A model generated the notes under the pieces. It saw only the letters and a program-made list of their open reading frames with translations, was not told the origin of the DNA and searched no databases. Shown here one piece after another: positions 1-43,384 of a stretch of 64,000 nucleotides of DNA; within the stretch, counting starts at the first letter, position 1; the number at the start of each line of letters is the position of its first letter. The DNA is taken from positions 5,090 through 69,089 of IMG/VR virus record IMGVR_UViG_3300020442_002701, one strand, 5' to 3'. The translations under genes and the position numbers were made by a program. This DNA is from a virus.

Positions 1-3000
1 ATTACGATTCTAGCACCGTCTCTTAAATTATGTGGAGTTGTTGTTGTAATCCTTACAGGATTAGTTTGAGTAGCACCACTTATATTTTTCTGTGCTCCAC
101 CTGAACCTTGAACATTTGAATATGTCCCTGCAGATCTAGATCCGTCTGCTCCACTTATATTTGAAACTGACTCAACACCTGTAACATGTACATCACCTAT
201 TTCGCCAAAGATTTGGTCATTATCTGAGTCACTCATAGCTTCAACAGCATTAATTAGATAATCAAGTGTGCCTGTTGAACCACCATGTTCAATAGTAATA
301 TGCGAGTTAGGTAGAGGTGCTTGTGCTAGTTCTGTAACATATATTTCTGTATCATTTACTGCATTAGTAAAAGTGCTTGTAGTGACAGTTTTAGCAGGTT
401 GCATTGTTCTGTCGCGAAGTGTAACTTGATCAGGTATTTCGTTTGGATCTGCACCTTCAGCTACCAATCCAAAGTTACCATATCCGTTAGAACAATTTAA
501 TGCTCTAATCTCCGAACCATTAAATGCATAAAAAGCAGCATGGTTATAGTAAGTAAATGTAGATACTTGCTCAGATACCGCACCGTTATTACAAACTAAA
601 CCATAACCTAAATCGTTTATCTGTGTAAAGTTTTGTGCAAGTAAAGATCTATTTCCAGAAGTTTGTAGGAAAATATCTCTATAATATTTGCCATCACTAA
701 ACTGACTTTGGTCGTAACCCGTACCACCATTTGAATCAGCGTCTAAATAAATTTTACACCAACCATTACCGCTATCATAGTCTGAAATAGCATTTATTTG
801 ATATCTACGTCCCTCTACATAAAAAGGACATGGTAATAATGGAGGTCTTAAAAATAATCCTTCCCCTGGTAAACTTCGTATCCAAAGCGTAAAGTTATTA
901 ATCTTACCATTTTGTAATCCACCTAATGCTGCTCCTGGATCTATTTGTTCTGGTACATAAACAGGTAGGTTAGCAACGTATGCATCTAAGAACATACCTC
1001 CAGCAAAAGTTTTCTTGTTTTCACTTTTACTAAAACTTGAACATGCAAAAATATATGGTGACTTGGTTAAAATTTGTCCAGCTGGGTCAAGCACAGTCAT
1101 AAATCCGCCGTGTCCTTGACAACTTACATTTGAAATAATAGTTCCGTCATTCATCAAGAATACATCCATCTGATTATTTCTTTTCGCTGGATTGTAATCA
1201 TTATTGAAAGCGTATGTAACCCTACCAACTAAATTTGTAGCAATAGTACCTGTGCCTGATTCTGCAACCCCGCCTGTTAGCACTGGTGCTTGATATGTTG
1301 CTGAGCCAGTATTTTGTAATATACTACCTGAAGGATAACTGCCTGTAAATAATTGATTAAGGAACACGCCTATTTGTGTTAATGAATCTCTAGTAATAGC
1401 TTCTTGTCCTAAAAATCCACCATCTGCATATTTGGCAACATAATAGTAATAGTATTCGCCTGCTGATTCAGTAACGAATTCTGCGCCACCTCTTGTGAAA
1501 TCTTTTCTTAATGCGTCTACAATTAATCCAACATCTCTTCTACATTTTTCTACCCCATGTACATAATTAACAAAATTTGTGTTAACAAAACTGATAGTGC
1601 TATTTTGTATGCTTAGTACTTGACTTGCATCTAATATAGCTGTTCTTGCAGCAGTAAATTGTGATTCTGCGTAGGTAAAGTTTGGAAGTGTTTCTGCCGG
1701 CAGTCCAGAAGTGCTATTAGCAGTTACAACATCTTCAACCACTTGTAACAAGCCGCTGTATTCTGCTTGTTCTGCTGTTGAGGATGCTTCAAGTGTTATA
1801 TTTTGTGCAACATCTGATTGTAAGCTAGTAACAACATTATCTACTAAAACTTGTTCGCCTATAGTAGAAAGATAATTTAAAGCACCTGCTACTGCTGTCC
1901 TTTGAGCTGCATTTGTTGTCCAAAGTTCTGTTGCACCGTCATAGTAACTTTGTGCTATTCTTCTAACGGCACTATTACCGCCATATTGTAAATCATAACT
2001 TGCCGCATCAATAACTCTTCCAATTTCAAATTTTAATCTAGTAGCATCTAATGCCGCGCCTGAATGGTTTGTGTTTACCCATTCTGCAATTTCTGCTTGA
2101 AGAAATGTATTGTTTGCCTGTAATTGTTTTCTTGCTTTAGTTGCATCTGCATTGACGTCAGCACCTGTAGTTCCAACTGGATAATCGAATTCTAATGGGC
2201 CTGCGGCTGTACCTGTGTTAACAGAACCATTTGTAATAATATCTATTATTTCAGTAATTGAATCATCTATCCTAGCAATACCTTGTGGCGTTAATTCAAC
2301 AGCTGCAATATTTCTAACAAGATATCCTACATATCTAATAGCACTGATTGTTGCTTCTTTATTTGCGGCTACCGCTGTAGCTTGTGGTGTTTGTTGATAA
2401 TACAATCCTCTATTGACAGCATTATAGTTTGTATTCAATGCCATATCATTGGCAATGTCATTTAAAATTAATTCTACTCTTGTACGCCAAGTTGGTTCAT
2501 CGTAAGTAATGTTTGGTTTATTTGCATCTACCCATGCAATAACTTCTTCTTGGATAAATTTTTTGTTAAGCCTAATTATTTCTGCGGCTTTAGAGTAATT
2601 TCCTACATTAGTTATGCTTGGGCCTATAGATATAGGTCTGTCAGCATCTGTTAGATAATGATAACCAAAAAATCCTTGTTTTACGTTTGACTGATTGAAA
2701 AATGGTGTACCAGTATTTGCTGTACTTAATCCATCAAATTCAATGTCTCTGTATAGGTATGTGCTTGCCCAAGGTGATTGTGAAGCTCTATCTTTAGGCT
2801 TTATAATTACACGTCTATAATCGTCACCTCTGACTGTAACATTTTCAGGAACTTTAATCGGATAGTCTTCTTCATAAACTCCTGATTCAATATGTACAGT
2901 TATTTGTTTACTCTTACTTGTGTTTCCATATAGGATACTTTCACCAACTTCAAAATCTTTTGGAAAAAGTAATTGAACTTCTAATGTGTCGTTGTTTCCA

Positions 3001-16330: not shown

Positions 16331-16906
16331 TTATTTTTCCTTGTTTATAATTTGTACGTTTATTGTCATACTTATTCTTTCTTCATCGGAATCATTTATT
16401 TCTACTTTATGCATCATCCAACCTGGTATAATTATGACATCTGAAGTTTCAGCAGGAATAGTTTTCCAAAATTTTGTATCTGGATTATTTTGCCAATGAT
16501 ACATCATAGGATTTAAAACTTGTAAATTACCAGTGTTTTTCTTTTTTTGTAAATAAAAGACAACGGTCATAACATCGTTAGGATGAGTATGTTCTAGTAA
16601 ATAATCATTTTTTGAATTATAATTGATCCAACTTTTAAATCTTAAATCTTGATAAGGTTCTAATTTTAAATCCCAGTCTTGCCACACAGTCTGAAACCCT
16701 TTACTAAACCATTGATTGAATTCATCTAACTCTGGCCAATCGTGCGGATAATCTTTTGTGTTGTATTTCTGTGTATGTCCAGCAAGTTTTTTTGTAGTTA
16801 CATTTTTATCTGACTTGAAGTTGTCAGCCTTAGATAATATCTTATCTATTCGACCCGGAAATGTACCTTTCCAAACTGGATCTGGAAATATCTTTATAGA
16901 ACGCAT
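16331..16906 (-). CDS. 2OG-Fe(II) oxygenase (TIGR02466-like), tandem paralog
   Basis: HTH...IIPGWMMH...RISM. Confidence 0.85.
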   Translation of the reverse strand: MRSIKIFPDPVWKGTFPGRIDKILSKADNFKSDKNVTTKKLAGHTQKYNTKDYPHDWPELDEFNQWFSKGFQTVWQDWDLKLEPYQDLRFKSWINYNSKNDYLLEHTHPNDVMTVVFYLQKKKNTGNLQVLNPMMYHWQNNPDTKFWKTIPAETSDVIIIPGWMMHKVEINDSDEERISMTINVQIINKEK

Positions 16907-16932
16907 ATTGTATTTAAGGTATAAGTATTAAC

Positions 16933-17097
16933 ATGGATGACAAACTGAATTATTACACACAACGTGAATGGGATAGAGTTGTTGGTATTGGCAAAGTGCC
17001 GCCAGAATATCAACATCCAGATGAAAAAGAATGGTCAGGGCAGGAGGATTCGAACCTCCGATCTCCTGCTCCCAAAGCAGGCGCTTTACCAGGCTAA
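16933..17097 (+). CDS. Small protein (54 aa) whose 3' part overlaps tRNA-Pro antisense
   Basis: MDDKLNYYTQREWDRVVGIGKVPPEYQHPDEKEWSG..., 5 nt after TATAAGTA. Confidence 0.45.
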   Translation: MDDKLNYYTQREWDRVVGIGKVPPEYQHPDEKEWSGQEDSNLRSPAPKAGALPG

Positions 17098-17108
17098 GCT
17101 ATGCCCTG
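17032..17108 (-). tRNA. tRNA-Pro(UGG)
   Basis: CAGGGCA/TGCCCTG acceptor, CCTGC-TTTGGGA-GCAGG anticodon arm, GGTTCGAATCC, encoded CCA. Confidence 0.97.
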
Positions 17109-17109
17109 T

Positions 17110-17203
17110 TGGTGGTCCCGGTGGGATTCGAACCCACATCGCTCTCTAATCTGGAGACTGTGCCGAGTATAAGCCGGGTGTTTTACCGTTAAACTACAGG
17201 ACC
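17110..17203 (-). tRNA. tRNA-Ile(UAU) with long variable arm
   Basis: GGTCCTG/CGGGACC acceptor, loop CTTATAC, extra arm TCTC-CAGATTA-GAGA, T arm GTGGG-TTCGAAT-CCCAC, ACCA. Confidence 0.88.
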
Positions 17204-17207
17204 ATTT

Positions 17208-17282
17208 TGGCATAGGTGCAAGGAATCGAACCCTGTCTTTCAGATTTGGAGTCTGACGTGCAACCATTAACACTTCACCCAT
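17208..17282 (-). tRNA. tRNA-Trp(CCA)
   Basis: ATGGGTG/CACCTAT acceptor, TCAGA-CTCCAAA-TCTGA, GGTTCGATTCC, GCCA. Confidence 0.95.
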
Positions 17283-17318
17283 AAAAAAAGCCCCTAAACA
17301 ATTTCTTGCTAGGGGCTT
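17283..17318 (-). terminator. Intrinsic terminator (attenuator) directly upstream of tRNA-Trp
   Basis: AAGCCCCTAGCAA-GAAA-TTGTTTAGGGGC then T7. Confidence 0.88.
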
Positions 17319-17360
17319 GTAAAAAAACTAACTATGAAAGTTAAGTCAAGACAAACCCCT
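17311..17360 (-). promoter_or_regulatory. Antiterminator helix
   Basis: AGGGGTTTGT (17360-17351) pairs 10/10 (one G-U) with ACAAGCCCCT (17320-17311, terminator 5' arm), enclosing inner hairpin GACTTAACT-TTCAT-AGTTAGTT. Confidence 0.78.
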
Positions 17361-17411
17361 CCCTATTATTATTGGGCACCAAAATATCGGCTGTGGTATA
17401 TTCTTGTTCAT
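17346..17411 (-). CDS. Attenuator leader peptide MNKNIPQPIFWCPIIIGRGLS
   Basis: AAGGAG 5 nt before ATG; ATA x5, CCA x2, CCG, TGG. Confidence 0.82.
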   Translation of the reverse strand: MNKNIPQPIFWCPIIIGRGLS

Positions 17412-17430
17412 GTTAGCTCCTTAATTGTCT

Positions 17431-17547
17431 TTATAGTGTAACACATTTATTTATATGTGTCAACCGAGATCTTAATTTAAAGTTGATCTTTTTTTTATGG
17501 TGCTCTGAAAACAAACGTTTGAAGCACCAGAGTGTGAAGTTGTCCAT
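17431..17547 (-). CDS. Small protein (38 aa) downstream of glutamine riboswitch
   Basis: GGGAG RBS; MDNFTLWCFKRLFSEHHKKKINFKLRSRLTHINKCVTL. Confidence 0.55.
   Translation of the reverse strand: MDNFTLWCFKRLFSEHHKKKINFKLRSRLTHINKCVTL
17435..17463 (-). promoter_or_regulatory. Sigma70 promoter with nested late promoter
   Basis: TTGACA-17-TACACT with TG extension; TATAAATA at 17455-17448 inside the spacer. Confidence 0.8.
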
Positions 17548-17571
17548 AACACTTCTCCCTAACGGTTAAAG

Positions 17572-17621
17572 TGCGTTCCTTCGCTCAATGCTACTTCCGT
17601 CCTATGATAGGATGAACGTAT
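17572..17621 (-). ncRNA. Glutamine riboswitch (glnA motif)
   Basis: CGTTC-A-TCCTA(TCA)TAGGA-CGGAAGTA-GC(ATTGA)GC-GAAG-GAACG: P1/P2/P3 junction with GGAAGTA..GAAG loop-E core; starts just after GATAAATA. Confidence 0.85.
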
Positions 17622-17637
17622 TGTATTTATCAAAGTT

Positions 17638-17738
17638 TGGCTCTGGGGGAAGGACTCGAACCTTCACGCTAAATATATTGCAGTACATTCAGCACACGTT
17701 AAACAGACGTGCATGTCTACCAATTTCATCACCCCAGA
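17638..17738 (-). tRNA. Non-canonical tRNA-Asn(GUU), 101 nt, long variable arm
   Basis: TCTGGGG/CCCCAGA acceptor, G73, CACGT-CTGTTTA-ACGTG, 10-bp extra arm, GAAGG-TTCGAGT-CCTTC, CCA. Confidence 0.85.
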
Positions 17739-17744
17739 TTAAAA

Positions 17745-18566
17745 CTACTTCTTATCTAAAGCGGCAATCATTCTAGTCATGCCTATGCCTCCGCCCACTC
17801 TTGGAAAGAAGTCAAATTCTAAAAACTTTTCAAGTTCTGCTTCTACTCTTTCTTTACCGAACAGTTCGAACAATAGTTTTGCATATGCACCGTCTGTGAT
17901 TGTGTGGAATGTATCACGCATCATATCAACATCACAACTACGTTCTGCTGATCCTATTGTTTCCATACCGCCTAGTATCACATCAATTTTCTTACTTGTT
18001 GCTCCACCTTCGTATCTGCTCATATTCCAGAAAGGTGATGTCATCTCAGGGAAGTCTGTAATCATTGTGCTTCCAAAATTATTAAACATACTAATTTCAT
18101 GTGATGCTTCCATCTCTTGTGTAGGCTCCATTGCAAAATGTTCTTGCCATTCTGCATACGTTTTTTCTGTTGGTTTATCAAAGCCTAAGTGGTCACATAG
18201 TTCGTATTCCATCTTTTTTAGATCGTTTATGTCACCTGGCATTTCAAATTCAAACATTGGAAATATAATATCATGTCTGCCTGGAATTGCATTAGGTTCT
18301 TGCCTGTAGGAAGTGGAGACACAAAAAAACCCCTTACTATCGGGGCTACTTAATAATTCATGTTCTAACCACATCTGGCCTGTCTGCGGCAACGGCCACA
18401 CCTGGCCTGCGTAATTGTAAGTTGCTACATTGAATGGATCTTCACATGCGGCAAGTATGCTCAATCTGTTTTGAGTGTGTACTTCTTCAAAACCTTTATC
18501 CAAAAAAAATGACCTTAAAAGGCCAACTGTTTTTGTAAATTTACTTGGGGATATTAACTGCGTCAT
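17745..18566 (-). CDS. Class IIb (Asp/Asn) aminoacyl-tRNA synthetase paralog, catalytic domain only; possible asparagine synthetase
   Basis: Motif 2 SYRQEP..RH..F..FEFE, ETIGSAER, motif 3 PRVGGGIGMTRM; 273 aa, no N-terminal anticodon-binding domain. Confidence 0.85.
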   Translation of the reverse strand: MTQLISPSKFTKTVGLLRSFFLDKGFEEVHTQNRLSILAACEDPFNVATYNYAGQVWPLPQTGQMWLEHELLSSPDSKGFFCVSTSYRQEPNAIPGRHDIIFPMFEFEMPGDINDLKKMEYELCDHLGFDKPTEKTYAEWQEHFAMEPTQEMEASHEISMFNNFGSTMITDFPEMTSPFWNMSRYEGGATSKKIDVILGGMETIGSAERSCDVDMMRDTFHTITDGAYAKLLFELFGKERVEAELEKFLEFDFFPRVGGGIGMTRMIAALDKK

Positions 18567-42670: not shown

Positions 42671-43039
42671 ATGAAACACAAACATTTAGTTATCAGATCA
42701 GAGGTTAACAAACCCATTGTTAATAAAACAAAGGCCCGTAAGTTTTTACGTAGTCTCATAAAAAAAATTGCTATGAAAGAATTATATGGTCCAGTTGCAT
42801 GTTATTGTAAAATGGAGGGCAACAGAGGTATAACTAGTTTTGCAATAATTGAAACTAGCCATGTAGCAATGCATATTTGGGACGAACCTACACCTGCTCT
42901 TGTACAATTAGATGTATATAGTTGTAGCAATTTTGATCCAAAAACAATCTTCGATCATTTACAAATAATGCAACCTGCAAAAATTGATTATAAATTTCTT
43001 GATAGAGAAAATGAATTTATAGAAGTAATCAAAGGTTGA
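42671..43039 (+). CDS. speD: S-adenosylmethionine decarboxylase proenzyme
   Basis: IETSHVAMHIW, LDVYSC. Confidence 0.85.
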   Translation: MKHKHLVIRSEVNKPIVNKTKARKFLRSLIKKIAMKELYGPVACYCKMEGNRGITSFAIIETSHVAMHIWDEPTPALVQLDVYSCSNFDPKTIFDHLQIMQPAKIDYKFLDRENEFIEVIKG

Positions 43040-43066
43040 CTTTTCATACAAAAGAGTATATAAATA
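43036..43066 (+). promoter_or_regulatory. Overlapping sigma70 and late promoter of tmRNA
   Basis: TTGACT-17-TATAAA, where the -10 is part of TATAAATA (43059-43066). Confidence 0.75.
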
Positions 43067-43071
43067 TATTG

Positions 43072-43336
43072 CAACGTTGAAACAAACTCAACGGCATACA
43101 GGACCCGGGGGCAGTACCCGGCAGCTCCACCAAAATACTTTTAAGACGAGAGTCTTTTTGCGGGGCTGAACTAGGATCGACTGGTGGTTACTAGGTTTAG
43201 TGGAGTTGTCCGGATCTAAGCTCGGTTAACGCGAAGAACTTTATAATTGCAAACGACAATTATGCGCCAGAAATGGCATTAGCGGCCTAATTTAGGCACG
43301 TGGGGGTTGGCAACTTACCTAGCAACAGAAAAGTTG
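43072..43336 (+). ncRNA. ssrA: Circularly permuted two-piece tmRNA (alphaproteobacterial type); outer ends approximate
   Basis: Acceptor piece ends CCGGG-GGCAGTA-CCCGG-CAGCTCC-ACCA (43132) before GGGGCTGA..GGATCGAC (43162); G3-U70; tag ANDNYAPEMALAA-stop at 43249-43290. Confidence 0.95.
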
Positions 43337-43384
43337 TTCGTTTAATTTTCCATATAAATAAAATACAGGCAAAGGAGATTCAAC

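What the first reader, a model, noticed from the sequence alone, without database searches (positions are those of the whole stretch)
17032..17463. Leader-peptide attenuator that appears to sense the tRNAs it controls (Trp, Ile-AUA, Pro)
Seen on the minus strand in order: promoter (TTGACA-17-TACACT with nested TATAAATA); AAGGAG; 21-codon ORF ATG AAC AAG AAT ATA CCA CAG CCG ATA TTT TGG TGC CCA ATA ATA ATA GGG AGG GGT TTG TCT TGA; terminator with T7; then with no gap tRNA-Trp(CCA), tRNA-Ile(UAU), tRNA-Pro(UGG). Nine of 21 codons are cognate to these three tRNAs and all 5 Ile codons are ATA. The ORF's 3' end AGGGGTTTGT pairs with the terminator 5' arm ACAAGCCCCT. Established: trp/his/ilv-type attenuators work this way for amino-acid biosynthesis operons. 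Inference: a ribosome reaching the stop masks the antiterminator strand, so transcription terminates. Stalling at ATA/CCA/TGG leaves it free, so the phage tRNAs are transcribed. This would be an on-demand tRNA replacement circuit, for example against host anticodon nucleases or tRNA depletion. I know of no description of such a system in a phage, but cannot search.
Basis: partly seen in the sequence, partly recalled or inferred. Interest (0 to 1): 0.96.

Follow-up and report, generated by a model that had tools for sequence, protein, structure and literature searches.

The report
Leader-peptide attenuator gating phage tRNA genes
An uncultured marine phage places a tiny translated "test" gene, written in the codons read by the three tRNA genes behind it, in front of a switchable transcription stop, so it probably makes these tRNAs only when ribosomes read those codons slowly.

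Summary
On the minus strand lie a sigma-70 promoter, AAGGAG, a 21-codon ORF, a terminator with T7, then tRNA-Trp, tRNA-Ile(UAU) and tRNA-Pro with no gap.

The same module occurs in 66 distinct related IMG/VR phage loci, and its leader codons follow the tRNA genes behind it:
- 86 of 88 directly adjoining non-Trp tRNAs have a cognate codon in the leader (shuffled pairings: 59.9, sd 3.3).
- All 13 loci with a UAU or CAU tRNA have 2-5 ATA codons. All 36 loci without one have 0-1.
- Six of the 8 tRNAs without a cognate codon lie behind their own promoter.
- Cognate triplets are frame-specific: 30% in frame 0 against 3-4% in the other frames.

The ORF's last 11-12 nt form the 5' strand of an antiterminator hairpin, which competes with the terminator (mean -18.9 against -17.8 kcal/mol).

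Best reading (0.75): a trp-type ribosome-mediated attenuator that autoregulates a phage tRNA operon. Nothing was tested at the bench. Eight full-text searches found no published account. Earlier agents of this scan reported this family and analogous devices on other DNA.

The parts
17435..17463 (-). Sigma-70-type promoter TTGACA-17-TACACT with TG before the -10. A T4-late-like TATAAATA (17455-17448) lies inside the spacer.
   Evidence: In relatives, 44 of 48 keep TTGACN-15..19-TAnnnT and 36 of 48 keep TAAATA in the spacer.
17417..17422 (-). Shine-Dalgarno sequence AAGGAG, 5 nt before the ATG.
   Evidence: An SD-like site lies within 20 nt of the start in 48 of 48 relatives under a permissive pattern; the commonest spacing is 8 nt (32 of 48).
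17346..17411 (-). Leader ORF of 21 sense codons plus TGA (MNKNIPQPIFWCPIIIGRGLS). It holds ATA x5, CCA x2, CCG and TGG.
   Evidence: In 62 of the 64 leaders resolved among 66 distinct loci the ORF ends at the stop inside the conserved block; the other 2 end at a TAG abutting it. ORF lengths with stop are 48-69 nt.
17351..17360 (-). Antiterminator 5' strand AGGGGTTTGT. It covers the last codons of the ORF and ends 2 nt before the stop codon.
   Evidence: in the transcript cut before the terminator 3' arm it pairs over 10 bp with 17320-17311. The isolated hairpin is -19.0 kcal/mol, against -11.7 (sd 2.2) with a shuffled spacer, z -3.29.
17311..17320 (-). Antiterminator 3' strand ACAAGCCCCT. It overlaps the terminator 5' arm, so the two structures exclude each other.
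17283..17317 (-). Intrinsic terminator: stem AGCCCCTAG.. / ..TAGGGGCT, then T7 (17289-17283) abutting the first base of tRNA-Trp.
   Evidence: hairpin in the MFE fold; -16.2 kcal/mol; unique in the window; 98.3% of cells paired in 48 relatives; CG/UA 29:14 and AU/GC 37:2 at two pairs.
17208..17282 (-). tRNA-Trp (anticodon CCA), the first gene of the gated operon.
   Evidence: (50.5 bits). It is the first tRNA behind the leader in 61 of 63 relatives by ARAGORN; the other two hold an uncalled Trp-like tRNA.
17110..17203 (-). tRNA-Ile (anticodon UAU, reads AUA), 94 nt with a long variable arm.
   Evidence: (59.1 bits).
17032..17108 (-). tRNA-Pro (anticodon UGG).
   Evidence: (71.3 bits).

Best explanation
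This is a ribosome-mediated (leader-peptide) transcription attenuator that gates a phage tRNA operon.

Proposed course of events:
1. Host RNA polymerase starts at the sigma-70 promoter, and possibly at a nested late promoter, and transcribes the 21-codon leader.
2. The last 10 nt of the ORF pair with the 5' arm of the terminator to form an antiterminator hairpin.
3. If the ribosome reads the leader quickly and reaches the stop codon, it covers that strand. The terminator then forms and transcription ends at the T-run, directly before tRNA-Trp.
4. If the ribosome is held up further upstream at UGG, AUA or another codon read by the downstream tRNAs, the strand stays free. The antiterminator forms first and polymerase reads on into tRNA-Trp, tRNA-Ile(UAU) and tRNA-Pro.

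Because the sensed molecules are the operon's own products, the circuit is a negative feedback that tops up exactly those tRNAs that limit decoding.

Shown here: the anatomy, its conservation, the codon-to-anticodon tracking, and the predicted mutually exclusive folds.

Inferred: translation of the leader, the direction of the switch, and the feedback.
For: Family: the module (promoter, SD, 17-22-codon ORF ending in GGGGTATGTCTT(G/A)A, hairpin, T-run, tRNA-Trp) is present in 66 distinct related loci.

Tracking, in 49 non-redundant leader and tRNA-set combinations:
- Cognate codons for non-Trp tRNAs number 169, against 98.0 (sd 7.4) in 20,000 shuffled pairings, none as high.
- 86 of 88 directly contiguous tRNAs have at least one cognate codon, against 59.9 (sd 3.3) in shuffles. 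Without Trp, Pro and Cys the count is 37 of 39, against 17.1.
- ATA: 13 of 13 loci with a tat or cat tRNA have 2-5 ATA, and 36 of 36 without have 0-1.
- Cys: 26 of 26 loci with the tRNA have a Cys codon, against 13 of 23 without.

Phylogenetic control, by independent pairs on a tree of the flanks:
- Ile 5 of 5 in the same direction; Tyr about 3 of 3.
- Summed over nine tRNA types (my own addition of the per-type means at the threshold of one cognate codon), about 14.7 pairs go the same way and about 0.1 the opposite way.

Other controls:
- Codon usage does not explain it: ATA/Ile in long ORFs is 0.34 with the tRNA and 0.31 without.
- Frame: cognate triplets are 218 of 738 in frame 0, 25 of 689 in frame +1 and 23 of 689 in frame +2.
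- Exceptions: 6 of the 8 tRNAs without a cognate codon lie behind their own TTGACA..TATAnT promoter in a 42-50-nt gap.

Switch:
- The truncated transcript pairs the leader GGGG with the terminator CCCC in 43 of 48 sequences.
- Hairpin energies average -18.9 (antiterminator) and -17.8 (terminator) kcal/mol.
- The antiterminator is more stable than with a shuffled spacer: mean z -3.3, and 42 of 48 have z below -2.
- A divergent family with another terminator stem has a matching leader end.

Geometry: 163 of 182 non-Pro cognate codons, and 45 of 47 TGG, lie at least 12 nt upstream of the strand. All 64 resolved leaders hold TGG.

There is no room for a separate promoter: the T-run abuts tRNA-Trp.
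Against: - No experiment exists. Translation of the leader, termination at 17283 and codon-dependent read-through are all inferred.
- Tracking runs one way only. Many leaders hold Cys (13 of 23), Tyr (18 of 46), Ser (19 of 40) or Gln (23 of 43) codons without that tRNA downstream. Pro codons do not track at all (24 of 24 with the tRNA, 23 of 25 without).
- Two of 88 contiguous tRNAs have no cognate codon: Ser(gct) in L087 and Ser(tga) in L176.
- Single-type sign tests are not significant on their own. Ile gives p 0.0625 and only 5 starred pairs.
- 19 of 182 non-Pro cognate codons lie under 12 nt from the antiterminator strand. In the window, ATA codons 14-16 lie 6-12 nt from it by my count, where a stalled ribosome would probably mask it.
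- The full-length MFE is the terminator in 48 of 48 sequences, so read-through would have to be kinetic.
- The GGGG:CCCC core and 8 of the 11 terminator pairs never vary in this family, so they give no covariation evidence.
- No 1:2-type structure was seen. Without any translation the prediction is read-through, unlike trp.
- The RNA-library data are assembled contigs and cannot exclude DNA carry-over.
Confidence: 0.75

Rival explanations
1. A sensor of general translation status rather than of specific tRNAs. Any ribosome that reaches the stop shuts the operon, and lack of ribosomes or a global slowdown (host shut-off, starvation, ribosome-targeting stress) opens it. The codon match would be a secondary tuning.
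For: No anti-antiterminator (1:2-type) structure was seen, so with no translation the antiterminator is predicted to form by default. Pro codons and the W-P/C-P core are near-constant whatever the cargo.
Against: It does not explain the perfect split of ATA counts by presence of a UAU or CAU tRNA. It does not explain 37 of 39 variable tRNAs being represented against 17.1 expected. It does not explain why tRNAs behind their own promoter are left out.
Confidence: 0.1
2. An ordinary small gene with its own, somewhat leaky, terminator. The tRNAs are made constitutively by read-through, and the hairpin and T-run serve only as terminator or processing site. The codon match arises because the peptide is best translated with co-encoded tRNAs, or by descent.
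For: The peptide has a conserved core (..CWPP.. / ..WCP..) and a constant C-terminus (G/R-G-M-S). The terminator is strong, and it is the MFE of the full transcript in 48 of 48 sequences.
Against: - The constant C-terminus is kept as RNA. In L053 and L175 the frame stops at TAG just before the conserved block, which is nonetheless unchanged.
- The ORF end is the antiterminator strand.
- Codons change with the cargo in independent lineages while genome codon usage does not.
- Other tRNA clusters of the same phages have no such ORF (output was cut, and only the printed part was seen).
Confidence: 0.08
3. A T-box-like RNA that binds the tRNAs directly through codon-anticodon pairing, without translation.
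For: Triplets complementary to the downstream anticodons sit next to a terminator/antiterminator switch, as in T-box leaders (recalled knowledge of the T-box system; abstract of PMC2879506 seen in the listing).
Against: - No T-box or other Rfam family reaches its threshold.
- There are several different triplets instead of one specifier.
- An SD-like site and an ATG or GTG start precede all 48 leaders checked, and all resolved leaders are uninterrupted ORFs of 48-69 nt, lengths that are multiples of 3 by construction.
- Cognate triplets occur almost only in the ORF frame.
- No acceptor-end-binding bulge was looked for or seen.
Confidence: 0.03

Closest known systems
trp operon attenuator of enterobacteria (trpL), and the class of ribosome-mediated leader-peptide attenuators (his, leu, phe, thr, ilv). 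General principle as in the abstract of PMC1183508; the rest is recalled.
   Same: Promoter-proximal short ORF with SD. Regulatory codons lie some 12-20 nt before an RNA strand that can pair either as antiterminator or be covered by a terminating ribosome. An intrinsic terminator stands in front of the regulated genes.
   Different: - The regulated genes are tRNAs, not amino-acid biosynthesis enzymes, so the sensed molecule is the operon's own product.
- No 1:2-type pause or anti-antiterminator hairpin was found.
- The element is phage-borne.
- There is no sequence or covariance-model similarity: Phe_leader 14.6 bits against 55 and His_leader 12.5 against 49, and no Trp_leader match was listed.
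Multivalent attenuators (ilvGMEDA leader: Ile/Val/Leu; thr leader: Thr/Ile). Recalled.
   Same: One leader holds codons for several different amino acids, each matching a product of the controlled genes.
   Different: Here the set of codons is rewritten as the tRNA cargo changes between close relatives. Example: the window (Trp, Ile, Pro) against L005, which adds tRNA-Tyr and has TAT and TAC where the window has TTT and TGC.
T-box riboswitches (abstract of PMC2879506 seen in the listing).
   Same: tRNA-responsive terminator/antiterminator switch read out through codon-anticodon matching.
   Different: T-box RNAs bind uncharged tRNA directly, have one specifier codon, control aaRS and amino-acid genes, and need no ribosome. 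Here there is a translated ORF and no Rfam match.
Anabaena sp. PCC 7120 trn operon, a long tRNA array induced under translational stress (PMC8421152, PMC10272220).
   Same: An accessory tRNA operon that is switched on when translation is impaired.
   Different: Its control is at the promoter, through direct repeats and the repressor TrcR (passages of PMC8421152 read; abstract of PMC10272220 in the listing). The words 'attenuat' and 'leader peptide' (in PMC10272220: 'leader') do not occur in the main text of either paper.
pheST (pheM leader) attenuator of E. coli. Recalled, not checked here.
   Same: Leader-peptide attenuation applied to a component of the translation apparatus, sensing charged tRNA-Phe.
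   Different: It controls a synthetase, not tRNA genes. It senses a single amino acid and is cellular.

Membership tests
Ribosome-mediated (leader-peptide) transcription attenuators | Short ORF with ribosome-binding site directly behind the promoter | tested here: met
   AAGGAG and ATG with a 21-codon ORF. An SD-like site occurs in 48 of 48 relatives and an ATG or GTG start is kept. 62 of 64 resolved leaders end at the block's stop codon.
Ribosome-mediated (leader-peptide) transcription attenuators | Regulatory codons matched to the product of the controlled genes | tested here: met
   Nine of 21 codons in the window. In relatives, 86 of 88 contiguous tRNAs are represented, against 59.9 in shuffles. 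The match is frame-specific.
Ribosome-mediated (leader-peptide) transcription attenuators | Intrinsic terminator between leader and controlled genes | tested here: met
   Predicted hairpin plus T7 abutting tRNA-Trp. 98.3% of cells are paired, with two compensatory pairs. Its function as a terminator was not tested.
Ribosome-mediated (leader-peptide) transcription attenuators | Mutually exclusive antiterminator whose 5' strand a terminating ribosome would cover | tested here: met
   The strand lies in the last 11-12 nt of the ORF. It is predicted to pair with the terminator 5' arm in 43 of 48 truncated transcripts, with z -3.3 against shuffled spacers. This is prediction only.
Ribosome-mediated (leader-peptide) transcription attenuators | Read-through depends on translation of the leader and on supply of the cognate charged tRNA | not testable with these tools
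   This needs reporter fusions, coupled in vitro transcription-translation, or Term-seq. Contigs from RNA libraries bridge the terminator but prove neither transcription nor regulation.
Curated Rfam leader families (Trp_leader, His_leader, Phe_leader and others) | Covariance-model score at or above the gathering threshold | tested here: not met
   There is no match at gathering score in 17283-17470. At E up to 10 the only leader hits are Phe_leader 14.6 bits against 55, His_leader 12.5 against 49, L10_leader 15.1 against 44 and PyrG_leader 17 against 65.
T-box riboswitch | Match to the T-box model, with specifier loop and T-box sequence | tested here: not met
   No T-box hit appears at gathering score or at E up to 10.

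The most novel reading that the evidence does not exclude
Phages run a self-referential tRNA homeostat. A leader peptide acts as a rewritable list of the operon's cargo, and it is edited codon by codon whenever a tRNA gene is gained or lost. Each infected cell therefore transcribes the accessory tRNAs only while ribosomes are slow on exactly those codons.

If so, the leader also reports what the tRNAs decode. For example, the CAU tRNAs called 'Met' here would be AUA-reading tRNA-Ile2. It would also report which codons limit phage translation in the wild. The same logic could serve as an on-demand reply to host tRNA depletion or cleavage.
Probability: 0.6. Interest if true: 0.9.

Novelty: new variant of a known kind. 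Interest (0 to 1): 0.85.

Why it matters
Why phages carry tRNA genes has been debated for decades. [quoted passage not shown] How phage tRNA genes are regulated is almost unstudied.

A leader whose codons list the tRNAs behind it makes the question testable in three ways:
- It says which codons the phage itself treats as limiting.
- It predicts the decoding identity of odd tRNAs, such as the UAU tRNA with a long arm and the CAU tRNAs tied to ATA-rich leaders.
- It offers a compact, portable sensor of decoding speed for individual codons.

It also extends classical attenuation from metabolic operons to the translation machinery's own RNA parts, and to viruses.

Tried and rejected
**Chance ORF.** Rejected by conservation of the frame, the start and the SD in relatives and by window codon statistics.

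**Codon match as a by-product of genome codon usage.** Rejected. ATA/Ile in long ORFs is 0.34 in loci with the tRNA and 0.31 in loci without.

**A generic terminator reused across the genome.** Rejected. There is one copy in the window.

**Cultured relatives.** blastn of the window leader and of the L182 leader against 50,697 phage records gave only the riboswitch part (four Methylophilales phage Melnitz records) and fragments covering at most 19% of the query. No isolate with the module was found at that sensitivity.

**Second family.** The scan for the L060-type block gave 37 stretches, nearly all chance matches in unrelated GC-rich contigs. Among the distinct sequences printed, three are the real thing (L193, L194, L220), all near-identical to L060/L066.

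**Broader collection pattern.** Two tries had a syntax error and I did not pursue it.

**Leaders in front of other tRNA clusters** (Thr, Ser, Gly, Leu, Asn, Arg) of the same contigs. None was seen in the printed part, whose output was cut in the middle.

**RNA evidence.** All 24 runs are kept as assembled contigs. The four that I laid show contigs across the terminator:
- X3 record 21: 17174-17404, 0 differences.
- X1 record 3: 17161-17305.
- X2 record 15: 17214-17369, 8 differences.

X1 record 6 reaches 17496, upstream of the promoter. Contigs cannot show starts, ends or strand, and DNA carry-over is possible. I use this for nothing beyond 'compatible'. Parts without cover mean nothing.

**Metagenome and genome collection scans.** Not used.

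**Supplementary files of papers.** Closed. None was needed for a claim here.

**Literature.** Eight full-text searches returned no paper on leader-peptide attenuation of tRNA genes. Subscription-only papers are not covered.
Full report
**What is there.**
I read 16700-17700 on the minus strand. In order it holds:
- TTGACA (17463-17458), 17 nt, TACACT (17440-17435), with TATAAATA inside the spacer;
- AAGGAG (17422-17417);
- an ORF from ATG 17411 to TGA 17346 encoding MNKNIPQPIFWCPIIIGRGLS;
- a hairpin AGCCCCTAG..TAGGGGCT with T7 (17289-17283);
- then, with no gap, tRNA-Trp(cca) 17282-17208, tRNA-Ile(tat) 17203-17110 and tRNA-Pro(tgg) 17108-17032 (ARAGORN; Rfam tRNA at 50.5, 59.1 and 71.3 bits).

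The promoter scan lists the site at 10 of 12 matches with a TG extension. It also shows that promoter-like sites as such are not enriched in this region (34 found, 31.6 in shuffles). The terminator motif is unique in the 64 kb window. Nine of the 21 codons are cognate to the three tRNAs. From the window's own codon usage this has P = 1.1e-5, and five ATA among 20 codons has P = 9e-5. ATA is only 36% of Ile codons in the window's long ORFs.

**Where it comes from.**
The window is part of a 69,089-base IMG/VR virus record, with a CheckV completeness estimate of 19.
- The neighbouring 273-aa 'tRNA ligase' gene is about 71% identical in DNA to that of Prochlorococcus myophages P-SSM2, P-SSM5 and P-SSM7.
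- A glutamine riboswitch (RF01739, 52.8 bits) lies just upstream.
- A permuted alpha-type tmRNA lies at 43032-43340.
- GC content is about 35%.

It is therefore an uncultured T4-like marine myophage. No isolate in 50,697 GenBank phage records carries the leader at blastn sensitivity.

**Relatives.**
Searching IMG/VR with the 'tRNA ligase' protein gave 596 related stretches, of which the best 80 were kept. About 14 of these had a tRNA-Trp preceded by the same kind of module. A DNA pattern for the conserved ORF end plus terminator arm found 99 stretches. After orienting, de-duplicating and calling tRNAs, I had:
- 66 distinct loci;
- 64 resolved leaders (one contig is cut inside the leader, and for one my SD rule failed although the ORF is intact);
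- 49 non-redundant combinations of leader and tRNA set with at least 600 nt downstream.

All 64 resolved leaders contain TGG. ARAGORN calls tRNA-Trp as the first tRNA in 61 of 63. The other two hold a Trp-like tRNA that it missed. The promoter is kept in 44 of 48 and an SD-like site in 48 of 48.

**Do leader codons follow the tRNAs?**
I excluded the start codon and the last four codons, which belong to the conserved RNA block.
- *All clustered tRNAs.* Codons cognate to the downstream non-Trp tRNAs number 169, against 98.0 (sd 7.4) when tRNA sets are shuffled among loci; none of 20,000 shuffles reaches 169. 89 of 97 such tRNAs have at least one cognate codon, against 61.6 (sd 3.4).
- *ATA.* The sharpest case. 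All 13 loci with a UAU tRNA or a CAU tRNA (called Met by ARAGORN) have 2-5 ATA and 0-1 ATT/ATC. All 36 without have 0-1 ATA.
- *Cys.* 26 of 26 with the tRNA have a Cys codon, against 13 of 23 without.
- *Near relatives.* L005 is 92% identical to the window over the flanks and has an extra tRNA-Tyr. Its leader has TAT and TAC where the window has TTT and TGC. L021 has tRNA-Arg(acg) and the codons CGC CGC CGT. L065 has tRNA-Ser(tga) and six TCN codons.
- *The exceptions are informative.* Of the 8 tRNAs without a cognate codon, 6 lie behind their own TTGACA..TATAnT promoter in a 42-50-nt gap.
- *Restricted to tRNAs joined by gaps of at most 12 nt.* 86 of 88 are represented, against 59.9 (sd 3.3) in shuffles. 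Only 3 of 9 behind a larger gap are. Leaving out Trp, Pro and Cys gives 37 of 39, against 17.1.

**Controls.**
1. *Relatedness.* I built a tree from the flanks (promoter, block, terminator, tRNA-Trp; leader core left out) and used independent pairs. Ile/ATA goes the same way in 5 of 5 starred pairs, Tyr in about 3 of 3, Cys in 2.7 of 5 with none opposite, and Ser in 2.2 against 0.1. Summed over nine tRNA types (my own addition of the per-type means at the threshold of one cognate codon), about 14.7 pairs go the same way and about 0.1 the opposite way. No single type reaches p 0.05, because pairs are few.
2. *Genome codon usage.* ATA/Ile in long ORFs is 0.34 in loci with the tRNA and 0.31 without.
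3. *Frame.* Cognate triplets are 218 of 738 (30%) in the ORF frame, 25 of 689 in frame +1 and 23 of 689 in frame +2.

Against the reading: tracking runs one way. Codons often occur without the tRNA, and Pro codons do not track at all (24 of 24 against 23 of 25).

**The switch.**
- *Conserved RNA block.* The block GGGGTATGTCTT(G/A)A (GGGGTTTGTCTTGA in the window) is nearly invariant. It is conserved as RNA: in L053 and L175 the ORF stops at a TAG that abuts an unchanged block.
- *Competing folds.* In transcripts cut before the terminator's 3' arm, the MFE pairs the leader GGGG with the terminator's CCCC in 43 of 48 sequences, with a mean pairing probability of 0.9. The isolated antiterminator averages -18.9 kcal/mol and the terminator -17.8. 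The full transcript folds as terminator in 48 of 48. The choice would therefore be kinetic.
- *Spacer shuffles.* The antiterminator is more stable than with shuffled spacers: mean z -3.3, 42 of 48 below -2, and window z -3.29.
- *Different solutions, same hairpin.* Different subfamilies build the inner part of that hairpin with different sequences. A divergent family with a CCCCCG/CGGGGG terminator has a matching CCGGGGGT leader end.
- *Terminator covariation.* The terminator is paired in 98.3% of cells, with compensatory changes at two pairs (CG/UA 29:14, AU/GC 37:2). Eight pairs never vary.
- *Ribosome geometry.* The stop codon follows the 5' strand within 0-2 nt, so a terminating ribosome would cover it. 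This is inferred from the usual footprint size, which I recall and did not look up. 163 of 182 non-Pro cognate codons, and 45 of 47 TGG, lie at least 12 nt upstream. In the window, by my count, the three ATA codons 14-16 lie only 6-12 nt away. They would probably not act as antitermination codons, unlike ATA 5 and 9 and the TGG codon.

**Expression.**
Only assembled contigs were available. Contigs from RNA libraries run across the terminator into the tRNAs, for example 17174-17404 with no difference. One reaches upstream of the promoter. This is compatible with read-through transcripts but does not exclude DNA.

**Known families and print.**
No Rfam family reaches threshold. Leader-family hits are far below it. 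Eight full-text searches found no description of leader-peptide attenuation of tRNA genes. The nearest printed case is the Anabaena trn array, which is controlled through promoter repeats and a repressor. The words 'attenuat' and 'leader peptide' (in PMC10272220: 'leader') do not occur in either paper's main text.

Earlier agents of this scan reported this same marine family, and analogous devices in other phage groups. Those are unchecked AI notes. I re-derived the family-level result here from my own calls, and I did not test the other phage groups.

**Verdict.**
- The attenuator reading is supported by comparative and structural prediction, not by experiment: 0.75.
- The mechanism class is known. 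Its target, its self-referential logic and its viral setting are not in print as far as I could search, so I file it as a new variant of a known kind.

Noticed in passing
window 17637-17738 (-): A tRNA-like gene with a GUU anticodon loop and a very long extra arm lies directly behind the 273-aa truncated class II synthetase-like gene (17745-18566). ARAGORN and Rfam do not call it in the window. In relatives the homologous spot is called Asn(gtt) of about 85 nt, or miscalled Asp/Glu/Asn of about 100 nt. P-SSM7 and P-SSM5 annotate a tRNA-Asn there.
   Followed up: partly
window 17570-17620 (-) and ORF about 17546-17430 (-): A glutamine riboswitch (RF01739, 52.8 bits) is followed by a 38-codon ORF whose end overlaps the attenuator's promoter. 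The riboswitch part matches a stretch annotated SsrA in four Methylophilales phage Melnitz records.
   Followed up: partly
window 17110-17203 (-): tRNA-Ile(UAU) is 94 nt long with a class II-like variable arm. The same long form recurs in relatives (for example L005 and L009).
   Followed up: no
L114, L134, L176, L113, L091, L009 (CAU tRNAs behind the leader): tRNAs with anticodon CAU, called Met by ARAGORN, co-occur with ATA-rich leaders in 6 of 6 loci; three of these loci lack a UAU tRNA. This suggests they are AUA-reading tRNA-Ile2.
   Followed up: partly
L065, L181, L183, L088, L096, L108, L114, L134, L138, L154, L162: between terminator and tRNA-Trp: A 77-95-nt insert folds into a cloverleaf-like RNA closed by a stem of about 10 bp and followed by T/A runs. 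It is not called as a tRNA. A similar element precedes another tRNA in L116.
   Followed up: no
L030:3105-3189, L073:1655-1739, L162 (Trp behind the insert): An 85-nt variant of tRNA-Trp(CCA) with a long variable arm replaces the normal 74-75-nt form in some relatives.
   Followed up: no
L088, L108, L122, L141, L174: gaps of 42-50 nt inside tRNA clusters: Internal TTGACA..TATAnT promoters stand in front of Glu(ttc), Ala(tgc), Arg(gcg) and Arg(acg) genes, so clusters that look contiguous are more than one transcription unit.
   Followed up: yes
window 43032-43340 (+): A permuted, alpha-proteobacterial-type tmRNA is encoded by the phage (alpha_tmRNA 125.3 bits; tag ANDNYAPEMALAA by ARAGORN).
   Followed up: no
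window 17448-17455 (-) and relatives: A T4-late-promoter-like TATAAATA/TAAATA motif is nested in the spacer of the sigma-70 promoter in 36 of 48 relatives. The leader may therefore be transcribed both early and late.
   Followed up: partly
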